Source of the DNA: Neocallimastix sp. 'constans'
Taxonomy: Eukaryota
Reading direction: 5' to 3'
DNA: 64,000 bases
Assembly (NCBI GenBank): GCA_050613775.1
Contig: JBODTK010000115.1
Location: 62,001-126,000 of the forward strand
Every line of letters begins with the position of its first letter. Position 1 is the first letter of the stretch. A model generated the notes under the pieces. That model was not told the origin of the DNA. It saw only the letters and a program-made list of their open reading frames with translations, and did no database searches. This document shows positions 58,987 through 60,944 of this stretch, in pieces. The translations under genes and the position numbers were made by a program.

Positions 58987-59134
58987 ATTTTTAATAAAAT
59001 TTTATTTATTTACTTTTATATTTAATTATTTAATAAATTAATTATATATTTATTTATTTTATAAAATAAATTTAAATTTGAATATAGTAATTTTTAAAAA
59101 TATAATATTATATAAATATATTTATGGTCTCTTT

Positions 59135-59150
59135 CATGAGACTCTTAATC
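59135..59150 (-). promoter_or_regulatory. PBS complementary to the anticodon arm (5' half) of tRNA-Lys(CUU)
   Basis: The minus strand reads GATTAAGAGTCTCATG immediately after the 5' LTR. Its complement CATGAGACTCTTAATC equals positions 25-40 of the conserved eukaryotic tRNA-Lys(CUU) sequence as I recall it. Confidence 0.8.
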
Positions 59151-60944
59151 TGTCAATGAGTGAAGCTCAGATTAATTATTTTATATTATATATTTTATTT
59201 ATTTAATAATATTTTATTAATAAAGAAGAATCATTTTCTAAATAATAATTATTACATGTATTTTATATTAATTTTATTTTATAATAAAGCATAATGTATA
59301 ATTTTATTTACTATATTTTAACAAAATAATTATTATTTAAATAGTTAAAAATATAATAAAATAAAATATTAATATAAAAATAATATAAAAATAATATAAA
59401 AATAATAAAATAGAAATTTATAAATTATTTTCAATTTTCAATTTTTTTTTTTTTTTTAACGACCGTAGCAGGATTTCTCCCCAGCTGCACATCCGTAGAC
59501 ACACAATGGTTTATTGCTAGAGCTCTTATCTAACTTCCTACTTAGTAGGTGGTCCCGTCCCTGCTGGACTGCCTTACAGTTACTCTGCTTCAACGTAACA
59601 TAAAATTTTATGTTATTAATTTTATGTTGACATTAATTTTCATGTTCTTGTATAATTTTATGTTTTTACATAATTTTATTTTTATCACGTTTAATTTATG
59701 TCAGTCACGTAATTTCAAATGATTTATTAAGTTACTTTTATGTAAATGATTAATAAATAATTTTTAATAATAAATAAAGTTTTTATTGTCATTTTATATC
59801 ATAATTCACAATTAATAATGAAAAAACCATTAATTTACAAATTAATAATAATATAAAAAATTAAAATTAGTAATTCACAATTAATAATATTAACGATAAT
59901 CATATTAAAAACATTCTTTTTATAATAAATTAATTTTATTATTAATTTTTATTTCACTTTAATAAAAGCTACCAATACCAGCATTAATTTAAGTATTTTT
60001 TATATATTTTATTTTTTTTAATAACAAACTTCAAATTAGGTTTTTCCAAATATAATTATTTATTAGAAGAAATATAATTATATCATTTTTATGAGAGTTT
60101 CTTACAATAAAGATTTACAAATTTAGAAAATTACATGTAAATTTTGAACCAGGGAAGCTAGTACGTAACTAAATGGGTTAGGTTATACTGACTTCGCTTA
60201 AAAGGAAAATATGAACTGAAGAAGTAGTTCTAGTAAAATTCTCAGTAATAATATGCATGTCAGATCGTGCTAAAACACTCAGTAAGATCGTCCGGTTACG
60301 GACAATTTTATATTTATAAGAAGGAACTGTGTGATTTCCTCAATATTCCCACTACTCCTGAAGGGGGGCTGAAACCAAGAAAGGTTCACACCGGAAATAA
60401 AATAAAATAAAAAAAATATATATATATATATAAAAAAAAAAGAAAAATATGTATTTATACTAAATGGGACTCATTAAATTTGATAATCTATCTATACCAA
60501 ACGACTGTATCATTATTACAAATGGATAATCATCATATTATAACAATGTAAAAGTTTATAAAAATAAAAACTAGAACACACATTAAAATCTCGTTATGTA
60601 AAATAATAAAATAATAAATTTTTAGTTTATTTTAAATTAATTTTCTTTATATCTATATCAAAATGTAAATTTATAATTATATTTAAATATATATTTTTCT
60701 TTAGTTTATTTTGTACATTTTTACTTTTTACTATTCATAATAATATATATAATAATAATTATAAAGCTAATGTCTTTTAAAATAAAACTATTTATCAATG
60801 TAAAGAAAAAAGAAATAAATAACTATATTAAAAAATAAAAAAAAATTTTTTTATAAGAAATTTATGATTATTACTTATAATAATTATTGTTATAAAAATT
60901 TAACAATAATTATTATATTTTTACATGTATATTCACATTATAAT

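What the first reader, a model, noticed from the sequence alone, without database searches (positions are those of the whole stretch)
59126..59151. Copia element apparently primed by a half-molecule of tRNA-Lys(CUU)
Seen: there is no TGG-type PBS after the 5' LTR; instead GATTAAGAGTCTCATG abuts it. Its complement CATGAGA-CT-CTT-AA-TC is an anticodon arm with a CTT anticodon, ending at tRNA position 40. Known: Drosophila copia and yeast Ty5 prime from tRNA-iMet cut in the anticodon stem, and some Candida elements use a tRNA-Arg fragment. I do not recall a Lys(CUU) half-tRNA primer being described, though I cannot search. A GTCTC/GAGAC hairpin (59127-59142) overlaps the PBS.
Basis: partly seen in the sequence, partly recalled or inferred. 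Interest (0 to 1): 0.8.

Follow-up and report, generated by a model that had tools for sequence, protein, structure and literature searches.

The report
Gut-fungus Copia with lysine half-tRNA site
An intact, recently inserted copia-type jumping gene in what is likely an anaerobic gut fungus has a primer site matching the middle of a lysine tRNA instead of a tRNA's end, so it likely starts copying itself from a cut half-tRNA, and this same site is already described for a large group of mould copia elements.

Summary
An intact minus-strand Ty1/Copia element (identical 173-bp LTRs, 5-bp target duplication, 1,491-aa ORF) has no TGG-type site. The 16 nt at 59135-59150 abut the 5' LTR and equal nt 25-40 of real tRNA-Lys(CTT) genes, the register of the half-iMet-type sites in 38 of 80 more distant relatives. 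Only 14 nt (27-40) are conserved: in 4 of 5 clade relatives with enough upstream DNA, and nearly so at four more sites in this window. Host-gene homologues point to Neocallimastigomycota; the host's own tRNA was not obtained.

It is not new as a primer type. Donnart et al. 2017 (PMC5445492) give the same 11-nt site, matching an internal region of tRNA-Lys, for FunCo1 Copias. Kojima 2024 lists four other anticodon-loop primers in fungal Copias. This scan noted Lys half-sites before in other genomes.

What may be new: a well-supported gut-fungal clade using it, whereas FunCo1 is reported only from Ascomycota (membership untested). Also a post hoc tendency of downstream bases to fold over the site (Fisher p 0.0001-0.002 over 9 sites; iMet controls p 0.19-0.48). 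Priming itself is inferred, not shown.

The parts
59151..59323 (-). 5' LTR, 173 bp, TG...CA
   Evidence: identical to 54229-54401; identity stops exactly at both ends
59135..59150 (-). Primer-binding site complementary to tRNA-Lys(CUU) nt 25-40; conserved core 59137-59150 = nt 27-40; published FunCo1 11-mer = 59139-59149
59127..59142 (-). 5-bp hairpin (59127-59131 with 59138-59142) covering the 3' part of the PBS
   Evidence: MFE fold; shuffle p 0.03-0.16 for this site alone
59145..59175 (-). 8-bp U5 inverted repeat (59168-59175 with 59145-59152) covering the LTR end and the 5' part of the PBS
   Evidence: MFE fold; 6-nt complement of the PBS at LTR position 149 of 173
54493..58983 (-). Single uninterrupted gag-pol ORF (1,496 aa from the first ATG, 1,491 aa from the ATG at 58968): protease, GAG-pre-integrase, rve, SH3, RVT_2 in Copia order
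54402..54409 (-). Polypurine tract directly before the 3' LTR
54229..54401 (-). 3' LTR, 173 bp
54224..54228 (+). Target-site duplication AAATA (left copy)
59324..59328 (+). Target-site duplication AAATA (right copy)
48107..48120 (+). Same 14-nt core in front of a decayed Copia (RT/RNase H remnants 48571-49614, + strand)
32574..32587 (+). 13 of 14 nt of the core in front of faint integrase-SH3 and RT traces (33558-34328, + strand, E about 0.01)
32014..32027 (-). Same 14-nt core after a CA end with a 9-bp U5 inverted repeat; no coding remnant detected
6587..6600 (-). 13 of 14 nt of the core, probably a decayed site; no coding remnant detected

Best explanation
The 14-16 bases right after the 5' LTR of this intact Copia element match the anticodon arm of tRNA-Lys(CUU) up to position 40, and they likely act as the primer-binding site for a 5' half of the host's tRNA-Lys(CUU) cut between positions 40 and 41. 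Shown: element anatomy, the match and its register, conservation of 14 nt across a deep AT-rich Copia clade. Inferred by analogy with copia and Ty5: the tRNA is cut in the 3' strand of its anticodon stem, the PBS opens the arm and pairs with nt 27-40, and RT extends the new 3' end into U5 to make minus-strand strong-stop DNA. Inferred from the tree: the clade took up tRNA-Lys by a switch from the half-iMet site that most of its more distant relatives carry in the same register. Speculative: short hairpins fold over the site until the primer is annealed.
For: The 16-mer equals nt 25-40 in 4 of 4 ARAGORN tRNA-Lys(ctt) genes examined. It abuts the LTR with no spacer. Of 80 metagenome relatives, the 3 AT-rich ones with enough upstream DNA all carry the 14-nt core 1.75-1.93 kb before the integrase core, at 35-42% protein identity; none of the other 77 does. 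One more carrier (L091) came from genome contigs. The window element and these carriers fall in one clade with the Orpinomyces proteins (FastTree support 1.0 and 0.996), and carriers occur in all three of its subclades. 38 of the 80 relatives carry a CAT-anticodon arm site in the same register. The site is in print for FunCo1 (PMC5445492, passages read); anticodon-loop priming with Tyr, Ile, Asp and iMet is reported for fungal Copias (PMC10886601, passages read); half-molecule priming by cleavage in the anticodon stem is described in PMC6317226 (passages read). Contigs in 4 of 4 laid runs span the PBS with 1 other letter in 89-124, and no difference is listed inside it.
Against: The host tRNA-Lys(CUU) was not seen: no genome is held, there is no tRNA in the window, and no stretch with the core lies in the 30 tRNA loci taken from two MAGs that carry such Copia contigs; the matched tRNA genes are viral. 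Positions 25-26 vary among sites. L093 lies inside the clade, has about 900 nt upstream of its ORF and lacks the site, though no 5' LTR is visible there either. No primer, cDNA or small-RNA evidence. The sister group of the clade is unresolved (support 0.69 and 0.28).
Confidence: 0.88

Rival explanations
1. Tf1-like self-priming: the transcript's own 5' end would fold back on the site through the 8-bp U5 inverted repeat and be cut to give the primer, and the tRNA likeness would be incidental.
For: The index element has an 8-bp U5/PBS inverted repeat and the site at 32027 has a 9-bp one. Self-priming is proposed for some plant Copias (PMC6317226).
Against: The longest complement of the PBS inside the LTR is 6 nt, against 11 nt for Tf1 (PMC7175516, passage read). 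LTRs differ among families while the 14-nt tRNA-matching core is fixed. A comparable U5 repeat is seen in only 2 of the 8 folds, and L015 has only 5 nt upstream.
Confidence: 0.04
2. The site binds an intact tRNA-Lys or another small RNA or protein for packaging or regulation, and priming happens by another route, as proposed for the hairpin site of fungal GalEa elements.
For: Hairpins over the site recur more than shuffles give. Fungal GalEa elements have a Conserved Hairpin Site in place of a PBS (PMC5445492).
Against: The match ends at position 40 directly at the LTR edge, the register of the half-iMet sites in relatives. There is no other PBS candidate next to the LTR.
Confidence: 0.05
3. 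The motif is a chance match, or the terminal inverted repeat of an unrelated DNA element.
For: Two copies at 32014-32027 and 32574-32587 face each other as inverted repeats about 545 bp apart.
Against: Fixed-position chance is about 1e-9. The motif sits at the LTR edge inside an element bounded by a perfect target duplication and at the equivalent place in four other families.
Confidence: 0.01

Closest known systems
FunCo1 clade of fungal Copia elements (Donnart et al. 2017, PMC5445492; passages, section 6 and supplement 4 read, six supplements searched)
   Same: Their 11-nt PBS is identical to window 59139-59149 (minus strand) and is described as complementary to an internal region of tRNA-Lys.
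   Different: FunCo1 is reported from Pezizomycotina, plus 2 copies in Lipomyces, and from none of 245 Basidiomycota genomes; this host is likely Neocallimastigomycota. The passages read do not discuss cleavage position or a hairpin at the FunCo1 site. Kinship was not tested: no FunCo1 sequence was in hand.
Drosophila copia and yeast Ty5, half-tRNA-iMet priming (PMC5371799 and PMC10886601, passages read; the original papers by Kikuchi 1986 and Ke 1999 were seen only as reference entries)
   Same: Copia domain order, PBS abutting the LTR and matching an anticodon arm. 38 of 80 relatives carry the CAT-anticodon version ending at the same position. That copia's primer ends at standard position 40 is recalled, not from a call.
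   Different: tRNA-Lys(CUU) instead of tRNA-iMet. Priming has been shown by experiment for copia and Ty5, not here.
Rust-fungus Copia and Helenus families with anticodon-loop primers of tRNA-Tyr, -Ile, -Asp, -iMet (Kojima 2024, PMC10886601, passages read); plant Osser, Bryco, Gymco-II (half-Met) and Bianca (half-Ile) (Neumann 2019, PMC6317226); Candida elements with internal tRNA-Arg(UCU) sites (PMC4139406)
   Same: Repeated switching of the half-tRNA primer among isoacceptors within Copia.
   Different: None of these passages lists a tRNA-Lys half.
Fungal GalEa Conserved Hairpin Site (PMC5445492)
   Same: A hairpin directly after the 5' LTR.
   Different: GalEa has no tRNA match and conserved 9-bp arms; here the tRNA match is what is conserved and the hairpin varies in register and is missing at some sites.

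Membership tests
Ty1/Copia superfamily | PR-INT-RT-RH order with RVT_2-type RT | tested here: met
   Pfam Pol_BBD 394-470, rve 593-693, RVT_2 1025-1257; RNase H-like C-terminus read from the translation
Ty1/Copia superfamily | TG...CA LTRs, 5-bp target duplication, PPT | tested here: met
Half-tRNA-primed Copia elements (copia/Ty5 type) | PBS abuts the 5' LTR and is complementary to a tRNA anticodon arm ending at nt 40, with no TGG site | tested here: met
   same register in the CAT-anticodon relatives
Half-tRNA-primed Copia elements (copia/Ty5 type) | The host tRNA carries the complementary sequence | tested here: inconclusive
   no host genome; match shown only to viral tRNA-Lys(ctt) genes; no core in 30 tRNA loci from two MAGs
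Half-tRNA-primed Copia elements (copia/Ty5 type) | A cleaved 5' tRNA half is physically the primer on strong-stop DNA | not testable with these tools
   needs VLP or cDNA primer sequencing
FunCo1 clade | Characteristic 11-nt PBS complementary to internal tRNA-Lys | tested here: met
   identical to 59139-59149, minus strand
FunCo1 clade | RT falls in the FunCo1 clade with bootstrap over 70 (the paper's definition) | not tested
   no FunCo1 sequence in hand; the supplement read and the rows seen hold none. No Pezizomycotina name appears among the listed homologues and no GC-rich relative with the Lys site among 80 loci, a weak hint of distance
FunCo1 clade | Host range Pezizomycotina (described range, not a strict criterion) | tested here: not met
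   a neighbouring Skp1 gene's best named hits are Neocallimastix and Piromyces; the polyprotein's are Orpinomyces; window GC 16%
Tf1-type self-priming elements | About 11-nt complement of the PBS at the transcript's 5' end | tested here: not met
   longest complement within the LTR is 6 nt; the transcription start is unknown

The most novel reading that the evidence does not exclude
Anaerobic gut fungi host an old, diverse Copia clade that switched from half-tRNA-iMet to half-tRNA-Lys(CUU) priming independently of the Pezizomycotina FunCo1 clade (or else FunCo1 reaches back to the base of Fungi), and selection keeps a short stem-loop folded over its primer site in shifting registers, acting as a gate on primer annealing or a shield from tRNA-half-guided silencing.
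Probability: 0.3. Interest if true: 0.45.

Novelty: new member of a known kind. Interest (0 to 1): 0.24.

Why it matters
As a primer type it adds little: the site is in print for FunCo1 and primer switching among half-tRNAs is known. Its value is range and tractability. It extends tRNA-Lys half sites to an early-diverging fungal phylum for which my searches found no such report. It gives an intact, young element for a direct test of non-iMet half-tRNA priming; the papers read infer such priming from complementarity. It also explains why PBS finders that look for TGG would miss Copias in gut fungi. The recurring hairpin over the site would be a small new regulatory feature if it holds up in a larger, independent sample.

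Tried and rejected
Own genome: none held. tRNA scan of the window: none. A viral-contig scan for the LTR-end plus PBS stretch gave 5 hits, none with a Copia match or a tRNA, taken as chance. Protein scans of viral contigs found no relatives. tRNA search in two MAGs that carry such Copia contigs: 72 tRNA matches, 30 fetched, none with the core; ARAGORN on loci L011-L097 gave only two long-intron calls that look spurious. FunCo1 sequences were sought in the supplements without success; two PowerPoint supplements, one holding the main tree, could not be read and may bear on kinship. The Atlas search gave only generic RVT_2 clusters. The representative-protein search never ran. One RNA-library run holds a contig across the PBS, but contigs cannot show transcription. 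Whole-region fold energy was low against shuffles at only 3 of 8 sites, and PBS pairing probability only at the index site, so the hairpin signal rests on the stem-specific tests. Considered by eye and rejected: the downstream arm pairing with the tRNA D-loop instead of the PBS, because the next base is C or T in the four sites sharing that register, as the hairpin needs, not G. Earlier-finding look-ups by genome, sequence and gut-fungus words gave nothing.

Full report
Element. The finding lies in an intact minus-strand Ty1/Copia element spanning 54229-59323: two identical 173-bp TG...CA LTRs, an AAATA duplication on both sides, a purine tract before the 3' LTR, and one ORF with protease, GAG-pre-integrase, rve, SH3 and RVT_2 domains in Copia order. 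Identical LTRs imply a recent insertion (inference). Near-identical DNA is held by 20 of 24 listed runs, mostly faecal metagenomes. The host is likely an anaerobic gut fungus: window GC is 16%, the best named polyprotein homologues are Orpinomyces models at 51-60% identity, and a nearby Skp1 gene's best named hits are Neocallimastix and Piromyces.

Observation. The 16-mer is at 59135-59150, directly against the 5' LTR, with no TGG in the first 8 nt. A scan of viral contigs with this stretch gave 5 loci; in 4 of 5 ARAGORN calls tRNA-Lys(ctt) over the match. In all 4 the 16-mer covers standard positions 25-40, and the LTR's last A also matches position 41. These are viral tRNAs; the host's gene was not obtained. 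Contigs from 4 of 4 laid runs span the site with one other letter in 89-124 and no listed difference inside it; these are near-identical copies and add little independent support.

Conservation. The 12-nt core occurs 5 times exactly in the window (7 at up to 1 mismatch, 0.31 expected). One extra copy (48107, +) precedes clear Copia RT remnants, one (32574, +) faint traces, and two (32027 and 6600, minus strand) none that I could detect. A protein-alignment scan of metagenomes found 469 relatives and kept the best 80. Of the 80, 3 carry the Lys core, 38 a CAT-anticodon arm site in the same register (many are near-duplicates of a few families), 3 a TGG-type site, 9 had enough upstream DNA but no assigned site, and 27 were too short. 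The 3 Lys carriers are the AT-rich top hits (GC 25-29%, 35-42% identity) with enough upstream DNA, and the site lies 1.75-1.93 kb before the integrase core. Of 7 loci from genome contigs (AT-rich Copia contigs inside MAGs, likely fungal), L091 carries the core, L092 is too short, and L093 has about 900 nt upstream with neither the site nor a visible 5' LTR. So 4 of 5 in-clade loci with enough upstream DNA carry it, out of 8 in-clade loci. Across 9 sites positions 28-39 are fixed by the search itself, 27 and 40 agree in 8 of 9, position 41 is A in 9 of 9, and 26 and 25 vary: the working PBS is probably 14 nt.

Tree. An integrase-region FastTree (82 sequences, 278 columns; 32 of the 80 loci with unassigned or short 5' ends left out) puts the window element, the Lys carriers, the Orpinomyces proteins and unnamed metagenome proteins in one clade with support 1.0, with Lys carriers in all three subclades; with 5 more loci support is 0.996. 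The sister group is unresolved (0.69, 0.28). Most outside elements with a readable site are half-iMet type, so a switch from iMet to Lys at the base of this clade is the simplest reading (inference; midpoint root, no clade test).

Mechanism. Shown: anatomy, match, register, conservation. Inferred from copia and Ty5 (PMC5371799 and PMC10886601, passages; PMC6317226, passages): the tRNA is cut in the anticodon arm, its 5' half anneals by nt 27-40 and RT extends it into U5. The cutting enzyme is unknown here; the Ty3 review names RNase P for Ty5. Self-priming is unlikely: the best complement within the LTR is 6 nt against 11 for Tf1.

Hairpin. Its sequence is not conserved, but stems of 5-7 bp between the PBS and the next bases score in 7 of 9 sites, in different registers. 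Combined Fisher p was 0.002 against shuffles of 60 nt (3 of 9 sites under 0.05), 0.0001-0.0009 against shuffles of the same 14-22 nt, and under 0.0001 against real non-adjacent windows. 24 half-iMet controls gave p 0.48 and 0.19-0.38. Against it: I noticed the pattern in these same sequences (only L091 came later), the sites are related, L011 and 32027 show no downstream stem, and whole-region energy was low at only 3 of 8 sites. It is a lead, not a result.

What is known. Earlier notes of this scan pointed to Donnart et al. 2017, and I checked the paper: FunCo1 elements have an 11-nt PBS complementary to an internal region of tRNA-Lys, identical to 59139-59149. FunCo1 is one of two dominant Copia clades of Pezizomycotina and was not found in 245 Basidiomycota genomes. 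Kojima 2024 reports anticodon-loop sites for tRNA-Tyr, -Ile, -Asp and -iMet in rust-fungus Copias and repeated switching. Neumann 2019 lists half-Met and half-Ile, and a Candida review lists internal Arg and iMet sites. I found no paper on this site in Neocallimastigomycota: searches on the motif, Neocallimastig with copia and PBS terms, Neocallimastigomycota with copia and retrotransposon (its one hit names the phylum only as a screen), FunCo1 (2 papers, the second without PBS text) and anaerobic gut fungi, all seen as listings unless stated. The library lacks most subscription papers and Repbase.

Membership. Copia: met. Half-tRNA-type PBS: met by sequence, host tRNA and priming untested. 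FunCo1: PBS met, host range not met, phylogenetic criterion untested, so I do not file it as FunCo1.

Verdict. A real feature, correctly read as to mechanism, of a primer type already in print; a new member from a likely new host phylum, with one modest structural lead. Interest 0.24.

Noticed in passing
window 32014-32587: Two oppositely oriented copies of the PBS core about 545 bp apart, probably two decayed 5' LTRs back to back; the left one has a perfect 9-bp inverted repeat between the LTR end and the PBS.
   Followed up: partly
window 48107-49614 (+): Decayed Copia: the PBS core followed by RT and RNase H remnants only about 450 bp later, so most of gag-integrase seems deleted.
   Followed up: partly
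window 51958-52431 (-), about 60930-61390 (-), about 63660-64000 (-): Three Skp1-like paralogues clustered around the element; only the first was confirmed by Pfam and homologue search, the other two were read by eye.
   Followed up: partly
window 39910-40881 (-): MULE transposase domain ORF, near a 51-bp tandem array at about 38434-39590.
   Followed up: no
window about 5640-6060 (+): By eye, degenerate Gypsy-like RT remnants; not tested.
   Followed up: no
window about 56170-56400 (-): A long asparagine-rich repeat between integrase and RT is kept in frame in the intact polyprotein.
   Followed up: no
L011:1764-2006 and L013:1-216: In these relatives the LTR appears to end in TA rather than CA before the PBS; L011 has a purine tract just before that LTR, suggesting tandem elements sharing an LTR or an assembly loop.
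   Followed up: partly
L091-L093: AT-rich Copia contigs of this clade sit inside bacterial and archaeal MAGs, likely fungal contamination; one such polyprotein is deposited under a bacterial name.
   Followed up: partly
L094:607-13003: A GC-rich locus with 9 copies of a half-iMet-type site in tandem LTR-like units.
   Followed up: no
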